DNA of 53,978 nucleotides, from contig JAKZTB010000182.1 of NCBI GenBank assembly GCA_047517345.1, forward strand, positions 1 to 53,978, in the 5' to 3' direction. This DNA is from Alphaproteobacteria bacterium (lineage in GTDB: Bacteria > Pseudomonadota > Alphaproteobacteria > UBA8366 > GCA-2717185). The first letter of the stretch is position 1; each line of letters begins with the position of its first letter. The translations under genes and the position numbers were made by a program. The notes beneath the pieces are model-generated. The model saw nothing but the letters and a program-made list of their open reading frames with translations. It did no database searches and had not been told where the DNA came from. Positions 10,977 through 50,139 of this stretch are shown here, piece by piece.

Positions 10977-11897
10977 TCATGGCGATGCTTTCGCGACGAT
11001 ATTGATCGAACCGCCGTCTGGAACCAGGCGTCTCAAGACGGCCGGATCGCGCGACAGGCTTTTACCGGTCGCCTCATGGGCAAGGCTGTAATCGGCATCG
11101 CCGAGAATATCGAGCAACGCTTCCAGCGATTCTGCCCTCTCCTCGAGCGTGTAGGGCGCCAGTTCCATGACAACAACCGGTTTCTGACGTTTGAGGAAGG
11201 CAAGTCCGCCGCGCAACACATCGACCTCGAAGCCATCGACGTCGAGTTTCAGCAGTTTCACCTTTCCGATGTTCCTCGATTCGACGAATTCCGTCAGGCA
11301 GATATTCACCGCCCCGTCCGTCGGCATCGGACGGCCACCATGTTTGGCGTGCCCCTGCAGGTCCCCCGCGAGCGGCCAGCTCGAATAGAGTTCTTTCTCC
11401 AGTGGCGCCTCCGACGAAACGGTAAGCATGACTTGTTCGGCGGCGATCCGTGCAGACAGGTCGGGGTTCAAATCGATATTCGCGCGCAGTTTGCCATACG
11501 CAAAACGGGTCGGCTCCAAGGCGTATACCCGGCCGGCCGCCCCGACGAGCCTAGCCAACGGAAGGGTATGCGCGCCAATATTTGCGCCAATATCGATGAC
11601 CGTGTCGCCCGCTTCAACCAGTCCCGCGATCGCCCGAACCGTCCTGTGTTCGAAACGGCCCGTGAGGTAGATCGCAAAATCGATCCCTTCCTGCAGATCG
11701 AGGTCCCAGTTGATCGAATGCCGGCGAACCCGAGTCCGGGAATCCCGCCCCAGAACTCGCCGCATACCCAATACCGGAATCTGCAACGACCGCGCCAGCG
11801 CGAGTTTCTGCTTCGTCTTCAGGATCATGCGGTCGTTAAGCCAATATTCAAACCGAAGGCGATTCGCAGCGTGCTGCGGCAGCCAAATATGCGACAC
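10977..11897 (-). CDS. FkbM family methyltransferase
   Basis: SAM-binding motif GDTVIDIGANIGAHTLPLA and the later KLLKLDVDGFEVDVLRGG motif are typical of FkbM methyltransferases. The exact start is uncertain (several in-frame Met codons). Confidence 0.75.
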   Translation of the reverse strand: MSHIWLPQHAANRLRFEYWLNDRMILKTKQKLALARSLQIPVLGMRRVLGRDSRTRVRRHSINWDLDLQEGIDFAIYLTGRFEHRTVRAIAGLVEAGDTVIDIGANIGAHTLPLARLVGAAGRVYALEPTRFAYGKLRANIDLNPDLSARIAAEQVMLTVSSEAPLEKELYSSWPLAGDLQGHAKHGGRPMPTDGAVNICLTEFVESRNIGKVKLLKLDVDGFEVDVLRGGLAFLKRQKPVVVMELAPYTLEERAESLEALLDILGDADYSLAHEATGKSLSRDPAVLRRLVPDGGSINIVAKASP

Positions 11898-12082
11898 AAC
11901 CTAGCAACCACGGCATTTTGCGGCCCCGTCCGGAACGTACAGAACCGGCGCATCTGACGCAACTGCCATGAGGATGCCGGAGCAACGCGACTGGACGCCT
12001 CACAGGTCGACCAGCATTGGTGGCGCACCGCGCGCCGATCTGCGGTAACCTGATCATCCAATTCGATGAATTGCGGGGACCC

Positions 12083-13447
12083 ATGAACGTACAATACGGC
12101 GCTGCACCGCTCGATCTCGGCATGACGTCGGACCTTTGCGCATTTCTAGCGACGCTGAACCTCTCCGATTTGTCCGCCGCCGCCGTGCACGAGGCCCGTC
12201 GTGGCGTGCTCGATTGGATCGGCTGCGCGCTGGCCGGCAGCCAGGGTGAAACAATCGATCGGCTGCTGTCGGTCCTCGAAGCCGTCGGCGGCAAGCCGCA
12301 AGCGACCGTGCTGGCGCGGAAGCTGAAACTGGGATTGCTCGAGGCGCCGATCGCCAACGGGCAGATGGGCCATCTGCTCGATTTCGACGACACGCATATG
12401 GACGGCGTCGTCCTGCATACCAGCTCGCCGGTGCTCGCCGCCCTGTTCGCGCTGGCCGACGCGCGGTCGGTCGACGGCCGGACCTTCGTCACCGCCTATG
12501 TCGTCGGATTCGAGGCGGGTGTCCGGACCGGAAAATCCGCGCCTGCCCATCATGACGGCGGTTGGCACCTGACCGGCACGCTCGGCACCATCGCCGCGGG
12601 CCTCGCTTCGGCGCGGCTGATTGGGCTTGGCCCCCTGCAGACCACGCACGCTGCCGGGATCGCCGCGACGCAGGCCTCCGGTATGCAGCAGAATCGCGGG
12701 ACCATGTGCAAATCCTTCCATGCCGGCCGCGCCGCGTCGAACGGCGTGCTGGCGGCGTTGCTGGCCGAACAGGGGTTCGACAGCTCGACCGAGATCATCG
12801 AAGGCAAGCGGGGGTTCAGCCGCATCTACAGCGCCACGACGGATACCGAACCGCTGCTCGCCGGCTTGGGCGAGGACTGGCAGATCGCCGGGAATGGCCA
12901 CAAGCCCTATGCCTGCGGTGTCGTGCAGCATCCGCTGATCGACGCGATGATCGCGCTGGCGAAAGCGCACGGAGTGAGCGCCGACAACATCGCGTCGATC
13001 GAGGCGAAAGTGCATCCCGGCGTCATCGCCATCACCGGCGTCGAGGACCCGCAGACCGGACTCAAATCCAAGTTCAGCCTGACCCATTCGGCCGCCGTCG
13101 CCTATCTCGACCTGACCGCCGGTATCGCCCAGTATTCGGACGCGCGCGCTGTCGCGCCGGACGGCGTCGCCCTACGGAAAAAAATAACCGCTTTGCCCGT
13201 CGACCGGTTCCGTAAAGACGAAGCCGAGGTCGCGATCGAAACCGTTTCGGGCGACCGGTTTACGATCCATATCGATCACGCAACCGGCACGGTCGACAAC
13301 CCCATGTCCGACGACGCGCTGCAGGCGAAGTTCCTCGCCAATGCGGAACCGGCCATCGGCAAGGATGCGGCCCGCCGCACGGCCGACCTGATATGGCGGA
13401 TCGACGCGCTCGACGATGTCCGCGCGATCACCGGAGCTTGCGGGTGA
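12083..13447 (+). CDS. MmgE/PrpD family protein (2-methylcitrate dehydratase-like)
   Basis: ATG at 12083. Family landmarks are present across about 450 aa: GVLDWIGCALAGS, DFDDTH, HLTGTLGTIAAG and KSFHAGRAA. Confidence 0.85.
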   Translation: MNVQYGAAPLDLGMTSDLCAFLATLNLSDLSAAAVHEARRGVLDWIGCALAGSQGETIDRLLSVLEAVGGKPQATVLARKLKLGLLEAPIANGQMGHLLDFDDTHMDGVVLHTSSPVLAALFALADARSVDGRTFVTAYVVGFEAGVRTGKSAPAHHDGGWHLTGTLGTIAAGLASARLIGLGPLQTTHAAGIAATQASGMQQNRGTMCKSFHAGRAASNGVLAALLAEQGFDSSTEIIEGKRGFSRIYSATTDTEPLLAGLGEDWQIAGNGHKPYACGVVQHPLIDAMIALAKAHGVSADNIASIEAKVHPGVIAITGVEDPQTGLKSKFSLTHSAAVAYLDLTAGIAQYSDARAVAPDGVALRKKITALPVDRFRKDEAEVAIETVSGDRFTIHIDHATGTVDNPMSDDALQAKFLANAEPAIGKDAARRTADLIWRIDALDDVRAITGACG

Positions 13448-47269: not shown

Positions 47270-47291
47270 CCGGAACCGCCAGCGCGGTTCC
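47270..47291. terminator. GC-rich hairpin between convergent genes (possible bidirectional terminator)
   Basis: CCGGAACCGC-CA-GCGGTTCCGG is a perfect 10-bp stem, flanked by short A/T runs (GGATTTA upstream, CAGATTTG downstream). It lies between the fumarase stop and the CheW-globin stop. Confidence 0.5.
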
Positions 47292-47310
47292 GGCAGATTT
47301 GCAGAAGTAG

Positions 47311-48399
47311 CTAAAGGTTCAGAACGTCGTCGTGCGTGCTGGCGGCGATCGCCATGACCTCCCCGATCGTACCCGGATCCATATCGAGATCTTCGAGCGT
47401 CGCCTGCAAATGACCGGCAACGGCGGCGAAATGCGCCTCTCCCAGCCCCTTCTCTTCGACCAGCGGCTTGTGCGCCTCGCGTAGAGAGCGGCCGTTATAC
47501 CCTTGCGGACCGCCGAACGCGCCGGTCAGGAACATGCGAAGCATGAACCCCTGGCGGTCCATGTCAACGCCTTCGAAGAACGGCGTCAGCGACGCGTCCG
47601 CCATGATTTTGGAATAGAAGATGTCGACCGCCGCCTCTACGGCCTCGTCACCGCCAAGTCGTTCGAACAGGCTTGCGGGCGGCGTCGCGATATCTTCCAC
47701 AGCAGCCGGGGCTTCTGGCTTCGGGAATTTGATGACTTTTTCGCTTTCCTGTGGCGCCTTCGCGCTTGAGCGTGTCTTGTCCGCTTTGGCGGCATCGCCA
47801 TCATCGTCCTTCGCCTTGGGGCTCGACTTGATCGGTTTCGCCTTTTCCTTCGTGGCCCCTTCGGTCGCAGATTCCCGGCGCTTTAGAACCACCGGCGGCG
47901 TCTGCGTCAGATTGTCGGAATCCAGAATGCGCTCTATATCCAGCACCACCAGGAGATCTTCCGGCAGGCGGTAGACCCCGGTGCTGAGACGGCGAAGCTT
48001 TTCGTCCAACGTTGCCGGCGGTTTTTCGTAATCCCGGCGCGGCAAGTCGCGGACGTCGCCGATCGAATCGACAAGAAGTGAGTAGAGGTCACCGTGATAC
48101 TCCACGGTAATTCCCATGCCGCGGTTGATTTCCGAGTGATCGTCGACGCCCAGGCAACGCCGCAGATTGATCACCGTGACGATGCGGCCGCGCAGATTCA
48201 TCACACCCGCAATCGCCGACGGCGCCAGCGGCACAGGTGTTATCAAGCGCGGTTCCACGATGTCTTGTACCTGTAAAATCGGTACGCCGAACATTTGGTC
48301 TTCGATTATCATCGTGACAAGCTGTTCCTTGTCGAGGGCGATCTGATCGAAACCGACCCCGGTCTGGTCTGAATTCTCGACGACGGCTAGCTCACTCAT
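47311..48399 (-). CDS. CheW domain / group I truncated haemoglobin fusion protein
   Basis: ATG 48399, 6 nt after GAGGAG. The CheW-like domain covers about residues 25-165, followed by a K/A/P/D-rich linker of about 80 aa. The C-terminal 120 aa or so align to trHbN-type globins: LFERLGGDEAVEAAVDIFYSKI, FGGPQGYNGRSLREAHKPL and FAAVAGHLQATL. Confidence 0.85.
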   Translation of the reverse strand: MSELAVVENSDQTGVGFDQIALDKEQLVTMIIEDQMFGVPILQVQDIVEPRLITPVPLAPSAIAGVMNLRGRIVTVINLRRCLGVDDHSEINRGMGITVEYHGDLYSLLVDSIGDVRDLPRRDYEKPPATLDEKLRRLSTGVYRLPEDLLVVLDIERILDSDNLTQTPPVVLKRRESATEGATKEKAKPIKSSPKAKDDDGDAAKADKTRSSAKAPQESEKVIKFPKPEAPAAVEDIATPPASLFERLGGDEAVEAAVDIFYSKIMADASLTPFFEGVDMDRQGFMLRMFLTGAFGGPQGYNGRSLREAHKPLVEEKGLGEAHFAAVAGHLQATLEDLDMDPGTIGEVMAIAASTHDDVLNL

Positions 48400-48523
48400 G
48401 GGGCGCTCCTCGGACACATATTCCGCCGCACCGGACCCGGATCAGGGGCGAAACGGCATTCAAAGTTGCCCGACGATAGCGTGATCGGGTTAACGGAGCC
48501 TTTACAGCCGACGCCCCAGAGCC

Positions 48524-48593
48524 CGTTCGACCTAATGCGCTCTACGCGGCGCGCCGTTCGACCTAATGCGCTCTAAGCGGCGCGCCGTTCGAC
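48524..48593. repeat. 31-bp tandem direct repeat, 2.3 copies
   Basis: CGTTCGACCTAATGCGCTCTA(C/A)GCGGCGCGC at 48524-48554 and 48555-48585, then a partial copy CGTTCGAC at 48586-48593. Confidence 0.9.
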
Positions 48594-48598
48594 TGTTC

Positions 48599-49430
48599 TC
48601 AACATTCCGGAACCTCGATAGGCATCCCTTCCCGATTGCCCCATTCGTTCCAAGACCCAAGATAATTCAACCCTGGGGTAACCGAGCAGCCGCAACGCGA
48701 GGTAGGCATGGGCAGACCGGTAGCCCGTCTGACAAAGCGCGATGATCTCCTTATCGGCCGTCACGCCATGCGATTCGAACAGCGCGCGCAGCGCCGGTGC
48801 CGGCTTCATGGCGCCGTCTTGCGTCAGATGATTGACCCATTCCAGATGCACCGAGCCCGGAACGGTGCCGCCCCGATCCGCGCGGCGGTCTTCGCCGGTC
48901 CATTCCGCGCGGCCGCGCGTATCCAGGACGACCGTGTCGGTCGAGTCGATGGCCGCGTGTACTTCGCGATAGGTTGCAAGACGGCTAAGGTCCGAATCGA
49001 ACGTGAAAACCGACGGGCTGGCAACCGTAGCCTCCCGCGTCACCGGCAGTCCGGCGGCTGCCCACCCCGAATACCCGCCGTCCAGGACGTGAACGTCATT
49101 GTGTCCGAGATATTCGAGAAACCACAAACCGCGCGCGGCCGTCATACCGGCGATCTCGCCGCAAAACACGATGGTGTCGTCGAATGAAACGCCGCGCCGC
49201 GCCAACAGAAATGCCCACATCCGCGTGAAGGATTCGAGCGGCGCGTCATCCGTATCGTCGCAATTCACCGCATAGATGTCGAAATGCCTGGCACCCGGGA
49301 TATGACCCATGGCGAACCGTTCGCCGGGCCGAACGTCGATGAGCCGCAGCGCCGGATCGTCCAAGCGTCCGTGCAGGGTTTCACGCGACCATAGCAAATC
49401 TGGATTTTCATACTCTTCGTTATTATTCAT
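48599..49430 (-). pseudogene. Tandem-rhodanese sulfurtransferase (SseA/thiosulfate sulfurtransferase-like) with a frameshift near 48668
   Basis: ATG 49430. Two rhodanese domains, with active-site loop CQTGYRS. After ...LGYPRV the conserved C-terminus NYLGSWNEWGNREGMPIEVPEC* (stop 48599-48601) is in another frame. The annotated frame instead runs on to 48573. Confidence 0.8.
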
Positions 49431-49641
49431 CGCTTCATTTCCTTCGAACTCATACCAACGAGCGCCGATAGTGACGCCTGGAGGCGGCTTGGCAGGATCG
49501 AAGATCGAATGTGACCATGACTCGGGGCCTTTCTGCCGGGGGCAATCCTGTACATCGGCGAAGAAGCGATGGATAGGCAATACTTCGATCATTGGCTTCC
49601 TTGCAATTCGCGACGCTAAACCGCATGTTTTACGTACTGCC

Positions 49642-50139
49642 ATGATGAAATTCATCCGAACCCTGCTCCGACCCGACCGGGAGGAGACCGATCCGGAGAC
49701 GGCGGAAGTCGCCCAGGCGGCGAACATCTTGCAGGTTGGGGAGTTTCAACTCCTCCAGCTCGCCTATAAGGATTGGTACGACGAAGAGTTACCCGAAGCG
49801 CTGACGGACAGTCTGTTTGCGGATTATATGCTGCGCAAGCGGGTTCCACATTGGGCGCGCCACTTCGCGCGCCGGATCCTCGACTGGGAGCGCAGAGGCC
49901 TGCTCGACGCCAACAACATCGACTATCATCGCTACGACCGCGGATACAGCTCGCTGGCACCGGGCGGCGTCCGCCGTTTCTGCATTGCGACCGCATTATT
50001 GGTGATTTTCGTCGGCGGCAGCCTTTGGGTCAGCCATCTCGCGGCGGGCGGCCGCTCTACGTCATTCCTGCCGCCTTATTTCAATGCCGACGAATTGGTG
50101 CCTGCGCACCAACCCGGCCGTGTCGGGCCGGGATCTTAA
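49642..50139 (+). CDS. Hypothetical protein with one C-terminal TM helix
   Basis: ATG 49642. Normal composition (MMKFIRTLLRPDREETDPETAEVAQAANILQ...) and a TM segment FCIATALLVIFVGGSLWV. I recognise no family. Confidence 0.45.
   Translation: MMKFIRTLLRPDREETDPETAEVAQAANILQVGEFQLLQLAYKDWYDEELPEALTDSLFADYMLRKRVPHWARHFARRILDWERRGLLDANNIDYHRYDRGYSSLAPGGVRRFCIATALLVIFVGGSLWVSHLAAGGRSTSFLPPYFNADELVPAHQPGRVGPGS

What the first reader, a model, noticed from the sequence alone, without database searches (positions are those of the whole stretch)
47311..48399. Orphan CheW domain fused to a truncated haemoglobin: possible gas-sensing chemotaxis coupling protein
One 362-aa reading frame joins three parts:
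- a CheW-like domain (MFGVPILQVQDIVEP...VMNLRGRIVTVINLRRCLG...LVVLDIERIL)
- a linker of about 80 aa rich in Lys/Ala/Pro/Asp
- a C-terminal domain that aligns end to end with group I truncated haemoglobins as I recall M. tuberculosis HbN (ERLGG-EA-E--V--FY, FF-G-DM-R, GGP--Y-G-----AH, F--V-GHL)

The alignment includes the B10 Tyr and a His at the proximal F8 position.

The aerotaxis haem sensors I know of (HemAT-type globin-coupled sensors) are sensor-type globins fused to MCP signalling domains. Truncated haemoglobins are, to my knowledge, almost always single-domain. A haem domain carried by the coupling protein itself would put O2/NO/sulfide sensing at the receptor-kinase interface rather than in a receptor.

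The gene is not in a che operon. It lies 180 bp downstream of a rhodanese sulfurtransferase on the same strand.
Basis: partly seen in the sequence, partly recalled or inferred. Interest (0 to 1): 0.8.

Follow-up and report, generated by a model that had tools for sequence, protein, structure and literature searches.

The report
Haem-globin fused to chemotaxis coupling protein CheW
This is a real gene in which CheW, the adaptor that links chemotaxis receptors to their kinase, carries a haem-type truncated haemoglobin on a flexible tether. In related bacteria it appears to have replaced the ordinary cheW gene, so gas or redox state may be sensed inside the signalling core rather than by a receptor.

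Summary
Window 47311-48399 on the minus strand is one 362-aa ORF. It comprises a CheW domain (Pfam E 5e-30), a 75-aa disordered Lys/Ala/Pro-rich linker, and a group-1 truncated haemoglobin (trHb; E 3e-16). The globin keeps Tyr-B10, Phe-CD1, Gln-E7, both Gly-Gly motifs and His-F8.

It is not an assembly artefact. More than 100 protein clusters have the same architecture, including cultured Aestuariispiraceae (marine Rhodospirillales).

- **The fusion looks like the pathway's own coupling protein.** Close relatives of Hwanghaeella CheA sit in cheA-cheY-cheB-cheR operons without cheW, including at least four genomes that carry the fusion. 121 of 133 operons counted earlier keep cheW.
- **The same globin subfamily joins other array proteins.** It is inserted into CheA in place of P2 (Dongiaceae, over 100 clusters) and is fused to MCP receptors.
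- **About 30% of orthologues have lost His-F8.** These include the cultured Marivibrio, Hwanghaeella and Aestuariispira, so haem is not universal. The window's clade keeps it.

The rhodanese and fumarase neighbours are synteny, not function. A conserved CtrA-box-like motif lies about 100 nt upstream.

Best reading: a haem-based O2/NO/redox input acting at the CheW-CheA core. Haem binding and signalling are untested. I found no paper describing this architecture.

The parts
47311..48399 (-). Complete cheW-trHb gene (362 codons plus stop)
   Evidence: ORF list. Pfam finds both domains. Met1 is invariant in the 39 close relatives, and full-length homologues range from 38 to 77% identity.
48406..48411 (-). 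Shine-Dalgarno GAGGAG, 6 nt before the ATG
   Evidence: Read directly from the sequence. The core AGGAG is identical in all six aligned upstream regions; the first base is A in L003.
48489..48505 (-). Conserved upstream motif GTAAAGGCTCCGTTAAC (family pattern GT[AC]AA-N7-TTAA[CT]), followed 8 nt later by GCTATC. It is a candidate promoter or operator and resembles a CtrA box.
   Evidence: It is the only match in the window, against 0.08 expected. A matching or near-matching motif lies 78-132 nt upstream of the orthologue in all 13 related loci inspected, although the flanking sequence and the neighbouring gene differ. The strict regex scores 9 of them; four variants (GTCAA first half in L005, L011, L012, L018) were read by eye, and L016 ends TTAAA.
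47905..48342 (-). CheW domain (aa 20-165)
   Evidence: PF01584 E 5e-30. pLDDT 80-94. Foldseek matches CheW 2qdl, 6s1k_C and 2ch4 at TM 0.84-0.86. The E. coli CheW positions I33, V36, E38, I39, G57, R62 and G63 align with I41, V44, D46, I47, G65, R70 and G71.
47680..47904 (-). Disordered Lys/Ala/Pro/Glu-rich tether (aa 166-240)
   Evidence: pLDDT is below 50 in two AlphaFold runs. Length and sequence vary among relatives.
47722..47742 (-). Short conserved motif EKVIKFP in the tether (aa 220-226). Relatives have NVVKFP, NVVPLK or KVLEF. It may be a docking motif.
   Evidence: Alignment of 36 close relatives. AlphaFold does not dock it onto either domain.
47314..47679 (-). Group-1 truncated haemoglobin domain (aa 241-362). 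Key residues: Tyr262 (B10), Phe275 (CD1), Gln283 (E7), Met286 (E10), Leu287 (E11), Phe290 (E14), His310 (F8), Gly-Gly 249-250 and 296-297.
   Evidence: PF01152 E 3e-16. PDB alignments. Residue mapping. H310, F275 and both Gly-Gly motifs are invariant, and Y262 and Q283 are at least 90% conserved, in 39 close relatives. Foldseek matches THB1 at TM 0.93.
47270..47293 (.). Perfect 10-bp hairpin (CCGGAACCGC-cagc-GCGGTTCCGG) between the convergent stop codons of the fumarase gene and cheW-trHb. It is a probable bidirectional transcript end.
   Evidence: Read directly from the sequence. The fold is about -25 kcal/mol on either strand. The consensus terminator scan did not call it because there is no T-run.

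Best explanation
**What it is.** This is a genuine single gene for a CheW-type coupling protein. Its C-terminus carries a haem-competent group-1 truncated haemoglobin on a disordered tether of about 75 residues.

**Where it belongs.** The family is found in Aestuariispiraceae-like marine Rhodospirillales. In these bacteria cheW has left the otherwise conserved cheA-cheW-cheY-cheB-cheR operon. It sits alone under its own conserved upstream element and has gained a C-terminal extension. The fusion is therefore most likely the cognate coupling protein of that Che pathway, not an extra paralogue.

**How it probably works.**
- The CheW domain builds into receptor-CheA core units.
- The tethered haem domain binds O2 or NO, or changes redox or coordination state. 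Met at E10 is a possible on/off sixth ligand.
- In that state-dependent way it biases CheA activity. This gives an aerotaxis or redox-taxis input at the kinase interface, independent of any one receptor.

**Shown here.**
- The architecture, its conservation, and intact haem-pocket and CheW contact residues.
- The cheW-less operon in fusion-bearing genomes.
- Recurrent fusion of the same globin subfamily to MCP and CheA.

**Inferred, not shown.**
- Haem binding and the identity of the ligand.
- Incorporation into arrays.
- The direction and mechanism of signalling.
- That the window's own genome also lacks an operon cheW.
For: **Both domains are intact.** Both are significant and fold-confirmed. 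The haem-pocket residues are invariant or nearly so in the 39-member close clade. The CheW residues matching E. coli I33, V36, E38, I39, G57, R62 and G63 are kept.

**The fusion is real.** 399 homologues were found, with about 100 full-length two-domain clusters. GC3 is similar across the three parts, and the internal GTG has no Shine-Dalgarno sequence.

**The CheW domain derives from an operon cheW.** The nearest single-domain CheWs all sit in cheA-cheW-cheY-cheB-cheR operons.

**Fusion-bearing genomes lack the operon cheW.**
- 121 of the 133 such operons counted keep cheW, with a cheA-to-cheY gap of 503-711 nt.
- The operons of Hwanghaeella, Pacificispira, Marivibrio and allied MAGs lack it, with a gap of 195-275 nt.
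- Pairings within one genome: H. grinnelliae (L010 with L136); MAG bin.17 (L011 with L170); the 4,072,204-bp chromosome (P0037/L197 with L168); the 5,246,406-bp Hwanghaeella chromosome (P0079/L198 with L179).

**The same globin subfamily joins other array proteins.**
- Of 13 close multidomain relatives with an identifiable partner domain, 11 are array proteins: 7 MCP, 2 CheA, 2 CheW.
- CheA with a trHb inserted between P1 and the dimerisation domain forms more than 100 clusters, for example in Dongia.
- In one genome a PAS-MCP gene lies next to the fusion gene.

**Published chemistry gives a possible switch.** The E10 residue can ligate the haem iron. Release of that ligand is coupled to a conformational change. 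A K(E10)M variant of THB1 ligates through Met in the ferrous state only (PMC11904497).
Against: - **No biochemistry.** Haem binding is inferred from sequence alone.
- **Haem ligands are often lost.** 35 of 112 CheW-fused globin domains lack His-F8. These include the cultured Marivibrio, Hwanghaeella and Aestuariispira. 44 of 116 CheA-inserted domains also lack it. The retained function of the extension therefore cannot be haem-based in every lineage.
- **Some orthologues have no globin.** Orthologues at the same locus carry only an acidic tail or a disordered tail of about 350 aa.
- **No mechanical route for the signal.** The long disordered tether gives no obvious path, and AlphaFold predicts no inter-domain contact (pTM 0.40-0.44).
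- **The closest characterised trHbs are not sensors.** THB1, GlbN and HbN act in NO dioxygenation or detoxification (my own knowledge).
- **The window's own genome is untested.** The cheW-less operon was shown in relatives whose fusion protein is 43-49% identical to the window's.
- **Other che clusters were not surveyed.** Further CheWs may exist in these genomes.
Confidence: 0.55

Rival explanations
1. The C-terminal globin fold is mainly a structural, adaptor or non-haem ligand module of a relocated CheW, for example for array packing, oligomerisation or partner docking. Haem, where the residues survive, would be ancestral baggage or a lineage-specific extra rather than the basis of the family's function.
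For: - The CheW domain stays 60-92% identical across the family, while the globin decays to 19-30%.
- His-F8 is lost in 35 of 112 CheW-fused and 44 of 116 CheA-inserted domains, and Tyr-B10 in 37 of 112.
- Orthologues at the same locus have no globin at all.
- A short conserved linear motif sits in the tether.
- Non-haem sensor globins are known: RsbR, photoglobin and a fatty-acid-binding globin (PMC8717448).
Against: - In the window's clade of 39 sequences at 45-77% identity, His-F8, Phe-CD1 and both Gly-Gly motifs are invariant, and Tyr-B10, Gln-E7 and Phe-E14 are at least 90% conserved. That is the pattern of purifying selection on a haem pocket.
- 69 of 70 close single-globin relatives outside the CheW and CheA families keep His-F8.
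Confidence: 0.2
2. The haem domain is an enzyme or buffer, such as an NO dioxygenase or an O2/ROS scavenger. The CheW domain merely delivers it to the polar chemoreceptor array, and no signal passes to CheA.
For: - The best-characterised close homologues (M. tuberculosis HbN, Chlamydomonas THB1, cyanobacterial GlbN) act in NO dioxygenation or protection from reactive nitrogen (my own knowledge).
- A Tyr-B10/Gln-E7 pocket is typical of such proteins.
- A flexible tether suits localisation better than allostery.
Against: - There is no evident reason to detoxify NO specifically at the array.
- The same domain is built into CheA in the place of P2 and into MCPs next to PAS sensor domains. Those are positions typical of signal input.
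- Loss of the haem ligand with retention of the domain in many lineages fits an enzyme poorly.
- No reductase partner is encoded nearby.
Confidence: 0.14
3. The pathway served is not flagellar chemotaxis. It would be a Che-like pathway with another output, such as swimming speed, clumping or flocculation, or development. The fusion would then couple gas or redox state to that output.
For: - The partner operon encodes a CheA with a C-terminal receiver domain, in the order cheA-(cheW)-cheY-cheB-cheR.
- That layout resembles Azospirillum Che1, which from my own knowledge affects swimming speed and clumping as well as taxis.
- A ChpT-like gene lies beside cheA in L030, and a CtrA-box-like motif lies upstream of the fusion gene.
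Against: No evidence against it was obtained here. This is a refinement of the best explanation rather than an exclusive rival, because the molecular mechanism would be the same.
Confidence: 0.1
4. An indel in the linker has joined separate cheW and glbN genes, so the fusion is an assembly or sequencing artefact.
For: - An in-frame GTG exists at aa 234.
- A 31-bp tandem duplication nearby shows that local repeats occur.
Against: - The same continuous frame occurs in about 100 clusters from NCBI, JGI, ENA and Logan assemblies, including isolate genomes and closed chromosomes.
- The GTG has no Shine-Dalgarno sequence.
- No relative has the two parts as adjacent separate genes.
Confidence: 0.01

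Closest known systems
HemAT and other globin-coupled sensors (for example Bacillus subtilis and Halobacterium HemAT)
   Same: A haem-globin domain feeds O2 information into the chemotaxis phosphorelay.
   Different: - HemAT has an S-family 3-on-3 sensor globin at the N-terminus of an MCP, joined by continuous helices.
- Here a T-family 2-on-2 group-1 globin sits at the C-terminus of the coupling protein CheW on a disordered tether.
- No Protoglobin-model hit and no MCP domain were found.
CheV (CheW-receiver fusion)
   Same: A CheW domain with a C-terminal regulatory domain, used as a coupling protein in arrays.
   Different: CheV's extra domain is a phosphorylatable receiver that works with CheA in adaptation. 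Here the extra domain is a haem globin, no receiver is present, and the fusion seems to replace CheW rather than supplement it.
Group-1 truncated haemoglobins: Chlamydomonas THB1, Synechocystis and Synechococcus GlbN, M. tuberculosis HbN
   Same: 43-48% identity to the algal and cyanobacterial proteins. The 2-on-2 fold (TM up to 0.93), Tyr-B10, Phe-CD1, Gln-E7, His-F8 and the Gly-Gly motifs are shared.
   Different: - Those proteins are single-domain and are implicated in NO and O2 chemistry.
- The E10 ligand is Lys in THB1 and His in GlbN, but Met here.
- E11 is Leu here rather than Gln.
PAS-Bac_globin-MCPsignal receptors described in silico (Corallococcus coralloides Cc_4972; PMC6194562)
   Same: A truncated-type globin is fused to a chemotaxis array component and predicted to be an aerotaxis sensor. 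Close relatives of the window's globin have this architecture (P0152, P0172, P0191).
   Different: In those proteins the globin is part of a receptor. Here it is on the coupling protein. Neither type has been tested experimentally.
CheA with an inserted trHb (Hpt-globin-dimerisation-kinase-P5-receiver), seen here in Dongia, Hypericibacter and many MAGs. I found no publication on it.
   Same: The same globin subfamily (53-56% identity for L030), tethered by long low-complexity linkers to a core array protein of the same type of che operon. It shows the same mix of haem-competent and degenerate versions.
   Different: The host protein is the kinase, with the globin in the position of P2, and cheW stays in the operon.
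Accessory non-receptor oxygen-related chemotaxis proteins, for example Campylobacter CheO (PMC9665402)
   Same: An oxygen-dependent input that acts at the array or CheA rather than through a ligand-binding receptor domain.
   Different: CheO has no sensor domain and is recruited to the poles under hypoxia. Here a recognisable haem sensor fold is covalently part of CheW.

Membership tests
CheW coupling proteins (Pfam PF01584) | Significant match to the CheW-like domain model over its full length | tested here: met
   104.3 bits against a cutoff of 23.5, covering model positions 1-136 of 138.
CheW coupling proteins (Pfam PF01584) | Two-subdomain beta-barrel CheW fold | tested here: met
   AlphaFold pLDDT 80-94. 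Foldseek TM 0.84-0.86 to 2qdl, 6s1k_C and 2ch4_W.
CheW coupling proteins (Pfam PF01584) | Conservation of residues implicated in CheA and receptor contacts in E. coli CheW (I33, V36, E38, I39, G57, R62, G63; the residue list is from my own knowledge) | tested here: met
   They align with I41, V44, D46, I47, G65, R70 and G71. Most are invariant in the family.
CheW coupling proteins (Pfam PF01584) | Physical bridging of CheA P5 and receptor tips | not testable with these tools
   Needs binding or array-reconstitution assays.
E. coli-type CheW equivalog (NCBIfam NF007903) | Score above the equivalog cutoff | tested here: not met
   48.7 bits against a cutoff of 260. It is a CheW-family member, not an equivalog of enterobacterial CheW.
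Group-1 (N) truncated haemoglobins | Match to the bacterial-like globin model, with best similarity to group-1 rather than group-2 or group-3 structures | tested here: met
   PF01152 60.2 bits against a cutoff of 21. Group-1 PDB chains score 1e-17 to 3e-27, and group-2 HbO about 1e-4 to 7e-4.
Group-1 (N) truncated haemoglobins | 2-on-2 helical fold with Gly-Gly hinges | tested here: met
   The model matches THB1 6cii at TM 0.93 and 1dly at 0.90. G249-G250 and G296-G297 are invariant.
Group-1 (N) truncated haemoglobins | Proximal His F8 and distal Tyr B10 / Phe CD1 pocket | tested here: met
   His310, Tyr262 and Phe275 align with F8, B10 and CD1. They are conserved in the close clade but lost in about 30% of more distant orthologues.
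Group-1 (N) truncated haemoglobins | Binds haem b and diatomic ligands | not testable with these tools
   Needs expression and spectroscopy.
Globin-coupled sensors (HemAT type) | N-terminal S-family (protoglobin-like, 3-on-3) sensor globin joined to a C-terminal transmitter domain | tested here: not met
   No Protoglobin (PF11563) hit. The globin is T-family and C-terminal, and the partner is CheW rather than an MCP, kinase or cyclase.
CheV | CheW domain followed by a receiver domain | tested here: not met
   No Response_reg hit at E up to 1.

The most novel reading that the evidence does not exclude
In a branch of the Rhodospirillales, gas or redox sensing has moved out of the receptors and into the invariant core of the chemosensory array.

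- In Aestuariispiraceae-like bacteria, the only CheW of a Che1-like pathway would be a haemoprotein.
- In Dongiaceae, the kinase CheA carries the same haem domain where P2 normally sits.
- The tethered globin would dock on the core complex depending on its ligand or redox state. On/off ligation by Met at E10 would be the switch.
- Every receptor in the array would then be modulated by O2 or NO at once.
- Lineages that lost the haem ligands would have re-purposed the same fold as a haem-free regulatory module.
Probability: 0.3. Interest if true: 0.85.

Novelty: new variant of a known kind. Interest (0 to 1): 0.7.

Why it matters
**What is new about the design.** Known aerotaxis and energy-taxis inputs (HemAT, Aer, Aer2) are receptors. 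A sensor domain built into CheW, and in a sister lineage into CheA, would be a different logic. The input would act on the shared core unit and so scale the output of all receptors, rather than add one more receptor signal.

**Why it is testable.** The family offers natural controls:
- haem-competent orthologues;
- haem-ligand-less orthologues;
- globin-less orthologues, all at the same locus;
- some cultured hosts, such as Pacificispira, Hwanghaeella, Marivibrio and Dongia.

**What it adds to globin biology.** A 2020 review recorded chimeric truncated globins in bacteria only for groups O and P (PMC7475203). This would add a bacterial, signalling-linked chimeric group-1 truncated haemoglobin.

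**An annotation problem.** Public annotation currently calls both the CheW fusions and the CheA fusions simply "chemotaxis protein CheW".

Tried and rejected
- **Assembly artefact.** Rejected.
- **Rhodanese or sulfide link.** Rhodanese is upstream only in the window and its closest relatives (L001, L002, L006, L007). L003, L005, L197 and L198 have other, often divergent, neighbours.
- **Fumarate link.**
  - The convergent fumarase looked striking, because Marivibrio has a class II FumC at the same place where others have a class I fumarase.
  - L011 and L016 show fumC inserted between fumA and the gene.
  - L197 and L198 have no fumarase there.
  - This is therefore inherited gene order, not evidence of function.
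- **"TrmE_N-globin-protoglobin" proteins sharing the globin.** The TrmE_N label is a sub-threshold overlap. These proteins are three tandem trHb units.
- **NJ tree of globin domains.** It does not resolve whether the CheW, CheA and MCP fusions arose once or several times. CheW-fused globins fall in at least four groups mixed with free globins. I draw no conclusion from it.
- **Consensus sigma-70 and terminator scan.** Nothing useful was found.
- **Upstream motif as a general che-regulon signal.** Only 4 of 55 cheA upstream regions have it, against a 1% background. That is not enough, and the operon promoter may lie further upstream.
- **AlphaFold with two different alignments.** Neither run gave a defined inter-domain contact or docked the linker motif.
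- **Literature.** Nine full-text searches were run. None found a paper describing a CheW-globin or CheA-globin fusion. Only the in-silico MCP-globin report turned up (PMC6194562).
Full report
**1. The observation**

- The reading frame lies on the minus strand, from ATG 48399 to the stop at 47311-47313, and encodes 362 aa.
- A GAGGAG Shine-Dalgarno sequence sits 6 nt before this ATG. Its core AGGAG is identical in all six aligned relatives.
- Pfam finds a full-length CheW domain (aa 26-161, E 5.2e-30) and a full-length bacterial-like globin (aa 243-358, E 2.9e-16).
- Against PDB sequences the C-terminus matches group-1 truncated haemoglobins best:
  - Chlamydomonas THB1 at 3e-27;
  - C. eugametos at 1e-26;
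  - Synechocystis GlbN at 7e-26;
  - M. tuberculosis HbN at 1e-17.
- Group-2 proteins reach only about 1e-4.
- In these alignments and in a domain HMM the key residues map as follows:

| Topological position | Residue |
|---|---|
| B10 | Tyr262 |
| CD1 | Phe275 |
| E7 | Gln283 |
| E10 | Met286 |
| E11 | Leu287 |
| E14 | Phe290 |
| F8 (proximal) | His310 |
| Gly-Gly hinges | 249-250 and 296-297 |

- AlphaFold models show two confident domains joined by a disordered segment, aa about 170-239 with pLDDT below 50. There is no fixed mutual orientation, with pTM 0.40-0.44.
- By Foldseek the CheW part matches CheW structures at TM 0.84-0.86. The globin part matches THB1 at 0.93 and HbN at 0.85.
- The linker is 75 aa long and rich in Lys, Ala, Pro and Glu.
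- The window holds no other che gene.

**2. Not an artefact**

- A search of 5.8 billion proteins returned 399 homologues. About 100 clusters are full-length with both domains, at 38-77% identity. They come from NCBI, JGI, ENA and Logan assemblies.
- A genome scan recovered the same gene in isolate genomes (Hwanghaeella grinnelliae, Aestuariispira insulae) and in MAGs. Protein look-ups placed it on two chromosome-size contigs of 4.07 and 5.25 Mb.
- All named isolates belong to the family Aestuariispiraceae, order Rhodospirillales.
- GC3 is similar in the three parts. The internal in-frame GTG at aa 234 has no ribosome-binding site.

**3. What the CheW domain is**

- Across the family the CheW domain is 60-92% identical to the query, far better conserved than the globin.
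- The positions that align with E. coli CheW I33, V36, E38, I39, G57, R62 and G63 are conserved as I41, V44, D46, I47, G65, R70 and G71. I know these positions as CheA and receptor contact residues from my own knowledge.
- The nearest single-domain CheWs share 43-57% identity with the query. They come from Azospirillum, Magnetospirillum, Thalassospira, Nitrospirillum, Kiloniella and others.
- All of them lie in one conserved operon, cheA(P1-linker-kinase-P5-receiver)-cheW-cheY-cheB-cheR.

**4. The fusion appears to have replaced the operon cheW**

- I fetched cheA operons with a Kiloniella CheA and then with a Hwanghaeella CheA.
- Of the 133 operons counted, 121 have cheW between cheA and cheY, with a gap of 503-711 nt. 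Twelve do not.
- The second scan returned further operons that were not added to this count.
- Every close relative of the Hwanghaeella CheA has cheA-cheY-cheB-cheR with only 195-275 nt between cheA and cheY, and no CheW hit within 4 kb. These are L163-L171, L179, L184, L186, L193 and L194, which include Hwanghaeella, Pacificispira, Marivibrio and allied MAGs.
- Outgroups in the same search, such as Thalassobaculum and Nisaea, keep cheW.
- Four pairings place the fusion and a cheW-less operon in the same genome:
  - H. grinnelliae Gri0909: L010 on contig 1 and L136/L163 on contig 4.
  - MAG bin.17: L011 and L170.
  - The 4,072,204-bp chromosome, which carries the haem-competent P0037: L197 and L168.
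  - The 5,246,406-bp Hwanghaeella chromosome: P0079/L198 and L179.
- The simplest reading is that cheW left the operon in this clade and persists as the orphan gene with a C-terminal extension.
- Two limits apply. I could not retrieve the cheA operon of the window's own lineage. I did not survey other che clusters in these genomes.

**5. The globin side**

- The same trHb subfamily is repeatedly attached to array proteins.
- In locus L030 the operon's CheA carries a canonical trHb between the Hpt domain and the dimerisation domain, the place of P2. It has Tyr-B10, Phe-Phe, Gln-E7 and His-F8, and is 53-56% identical to the query globin.
- A protein search with that CheA shows the architecture is common. 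More than 100 clusters have it, for example in Dongia deserti, D. rigui and Hypericibacter. NCBI names several of them, including the Dongia and Hypericibacter entries, "chemotaxis protein CheW".
- I searched the query globin alone against 1.84 billion representative proteins and scanned the long hits with Pfam. The results were:
  - five MCPs with N- or C-terminal globins, often with PAS domains;
  - two more MCPs, one of them with three globins;
  - two CheA fragments;
  - two more CheW-globin proteins with short linkers;
  - only two non-chemotaxis partners, ankyrin repeats and an ABC ATPase fragment.
- In total, 11 of 13 partner-bearing relatives are array proteins.
- In L197 a PAS-MCP gene lies tail-to-tail with the fusion gene.
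- This guilt by association is the main support for a sensory role.

**6. A complication: many orthologues have lost the haem ligands**

- Only 77 of 112 CheW-fused globin domains keep His-F8, and 75 of 112 keep Tyr-B10.
- Among CheA-inserted domains, 72 of 116 keep His-F8.
- The cultured Marivibrio (B10 Gln, F8 Tyr), Hwanghaeella (F8 Leu), Aestuariispira and Curvivirga (both F8 Tyr, first Gly-Gly lost) carry degenerate versions. Pacificispira keeps His-F8 but not Tyr-B10.
- Some orthologues at the same locus have no globin. L018 encodes a 198-aa CheW with an acidic tail. L015 encodes a CheW plus about 350 aa of low-complexity sequence.
- In contrast, the window's clade of 39 sequences at 45-77% identity keeps the pocket. 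His310, Phe275 and both Gly-Gly motifs are invariant. Tyr262, Gln283 and Phe290 are at least 90% conserved.
- For this gene, haem binding is therefore the expectation. For the family as a whole, the extension must also have a haem-independent role.

**7. Possible switch chemistry**

- Position E10 is Met in 43 of the CheW-fused domains, including the query. In close single-globin relatives outside the CheW and CheA families it is Lys (40), Met (16) or His (8).
- Published work gives four relevant points (PMC11904497; PMC4720485):
  - E10 can ligate the haem iron, as His does in GlbN and Lys in THB1.
  - Release of that ligand is coupled to a conformational change.
  - A K(E10)M variant of THB1 ligates through Met in the ferrous but not the ferric state.
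  - A natural Met-E10 trHb from Shewanella stayed five-coordinate.
- A redox- or ligand-dependent Met on/off switch is therefore plausible but not predictable from sequence.

**8. Regulation and neighbours**

- The rhodanese gene (Pfam-confirmed) lies upstream only in the closest relatives. More distant orthologues have a divergent alpha/beta-hydrolase or an ABC-F gene there.
- The convergent class I fumarase is old synteny, in the order thyA, sspB, fumA, then the gene.
  - In L011 and L016 fumC has been inserted between fumA and the gene, which explains the FumC neighbour in Marivibrio.
  - In L197 and L198 there is no fumarase there.
- A perfect 10-bp hairpin at 47270-47293 separates the convergent stop codons.
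- Upstream, one element stands out in an otherwise unconserved intergenic region. It is GTAAAGGCTCCGTTAAC at 48505-48489, followed 8 nt later by GCTATC.
  - It is the only match in the window, against 0.08 expected.
  - A matching or near-matching motif lies 78-132 nt upstream in all 13 related loci inspected. The strict regex scores nine; four GTCAA variants were read by eye, and L016 ends TTAAA.
  - About 1% of random 300-nt windows contain the relaxed motif.
- The element resembles the CtrA box TTAA-N7-TTAAC, with a weaker first half-site, followed by an alphaproteobacterial -10 core. Both consensus sequences are from my own knowledge.
- CtrA controls motility genes in several alphaproteobacteria (my own knowledge). 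The assignment here is a hypothesis. Only 4 of 55 cheA upstream regions carry the motif.
- The element does show that the gene has its own conserved control region, independent of rhodanese.

**9. Mechanism**

The best-supported explanation, at confidence 0.55, has four steps:
1. The CheW domain builds into receptor-CheA core units of the Che1-like pathway.
2. The haem domain is held within reach by the tether.
3. It binds O2 or NO, or changes redox or coordination state.
4. It then alters kinase output.

Steps 1-4 are all inferred. What is shown is the architecture, the conservation pattern, the missing operon cheW, and the parallel fusions.

The rivals are:
- a haem-independent structural or adaptor role (0.2);
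- an array-localised NO or O2 enzyme (0.14);
- a non-taxis output of the pathway (0.1), which refines rather than contradicts the main reading;
- an artefact (0.01).

**10. Comparison with known systems, and novelty**

- The fusion works most like HemAT-type sensors in purpose, and like CheV in construction. It is a member of neither family:
  - no S-family globin;
  - no MCP domain;
  - no receiver domain.
- It is a bona fide member of the CheW domain family and of the group-1 trHbs by sequence, fold and signature residues. It is not an equivalog of E. coli CheW.
- A 2020 review lists bacterial chimeric truncated globins only for groups O and P (PMC7475203).
- An in-silico paper noted PAS-globin-MCP receptors (PMC6194562).
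- Nine full-text searches found no description of CheW-globin or CheA-globin proteins.
- JGI's automatic annotation already names the two halves, so the architecture is visible in databases but appears unstudied.
- I rate it a new variant of a known kind, namely haem-based taxis sensors and CheW fusion proteins. Interest is 0.7.

Noticed in passing
window 48523-48593: A 31-bp unit (CCGTTCGACCTAATGCGCTCTAAGCGGCGCG) is repeated 2.3 times in tandem with 97% matches, across the 3' end of the rhodanese ORF. The last roughly 31 residues of that ORF are not matched in relatives, so the duplication may have altered the rhodanese C-terminus or may be a local assembly or replication slip.
   Followed up: partly
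window 48573-49727 (-) and 49309-50139 (+): The rhodanese ORF as listed (384 aa) has a long unmatched 5' extension. Homology starts at about aa 109, and a 285-aa version starting at 49430 gives the Pfam hit. The extension overlaps a plus-strand ORF. The real start is probably near 49430.
   Followed up: partly
L030 6950-9943 (also L035, L056, L082, L100, L128, L132, L143): CheA kinases carry a truncated-haemoglobin domain inserted between Hpt (P1) and the dimerisation domain, in the place of P2. L030 is haem-competent. L035, L056 and L082 lack the proximal His. More than 100 protein clusters have this architecture (Dongia, Hypericibacter and others), and NCBI names several of them, including the Dongia and Hypericibacter entries, 'chemotaxis protein CheW'.
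   Followed up: partly
L123 (Terasakiella pusilla), L153/L154 (Magnetovibrio MAGs), L098, L118, L129, L133, L160, L162, L194: These che operons also lack cheW between cheA and cheY and lie outside the named Aestuariispiraceae. I did not check whether these genomes carry an orphan CheW with or without an extension.
   Followed up: no
L030 6178-6819: A ChpT-like histidine phosphotransferase gene (PF10090, E 6.6e-24) lies directly upstream of the cheA-trHb operon. ChpT belongs to the CckA-ChpT-CtrA relay (my own knowledge), which is interesting given the CtrA-box-like motif upstream of the window's gene.
   Followed up: no
L197 7121-8939: In the 4.07-Mb chromosome carrying the haem-competent orthologue P0037, a soluble PAS-MCP receptor lies tail-to-tail with the fusion gene. 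It is called as two overlapping genes (PAS, 174 aa; MCPsignal, 439 aa), possibly one frameshifted gene.
   Followed up: no
L011 and L016 (fumC at about 11057-12445 and 11307-12707); L005 11078-12472: A class II fumarase (fumC) is inserted between the class I fumarase gene and the cheW-globin gene in two relatives. Marivibrio halodurans has only fumC at that place. Two non-homologous fumarases therefore cluster here.
   Followed up: partly
proteins P0121-P0136, P0044, P0056 and others: Many close relatives of the globin are multi-unit proteins with 3 to 12 tandem trHb domains, for example P0121 (1882 aa, 12 units), some with ankyrin repeats. The precomputed 'TrmE_N' and 'Protoglobin' labels on the three-unit proteins are sub-threshold overlaps.
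   Followed up: partly
window 47722-47742 (aa 220-226, EKVIKFP): A short motif is conserved within the otherwise variable tether ([N/K]-V-[VIL]-x-[FL]-[PK]), about 20 residues before the globin in the close clade. The near-invariant TPPVxLKRR segment directly after the CheW domain is also conserved. Both may be docking sites.
   Followed up: partly
L015 9956-11524; L018 9986-10582: Orthologues of the orphan CheW at the same locus have no globin. One carries about 350 aa of acidic, proline-rich low-complexity sequence ending in a Lys-rich tail. The other has a short acidic tail.
   Followed up: no
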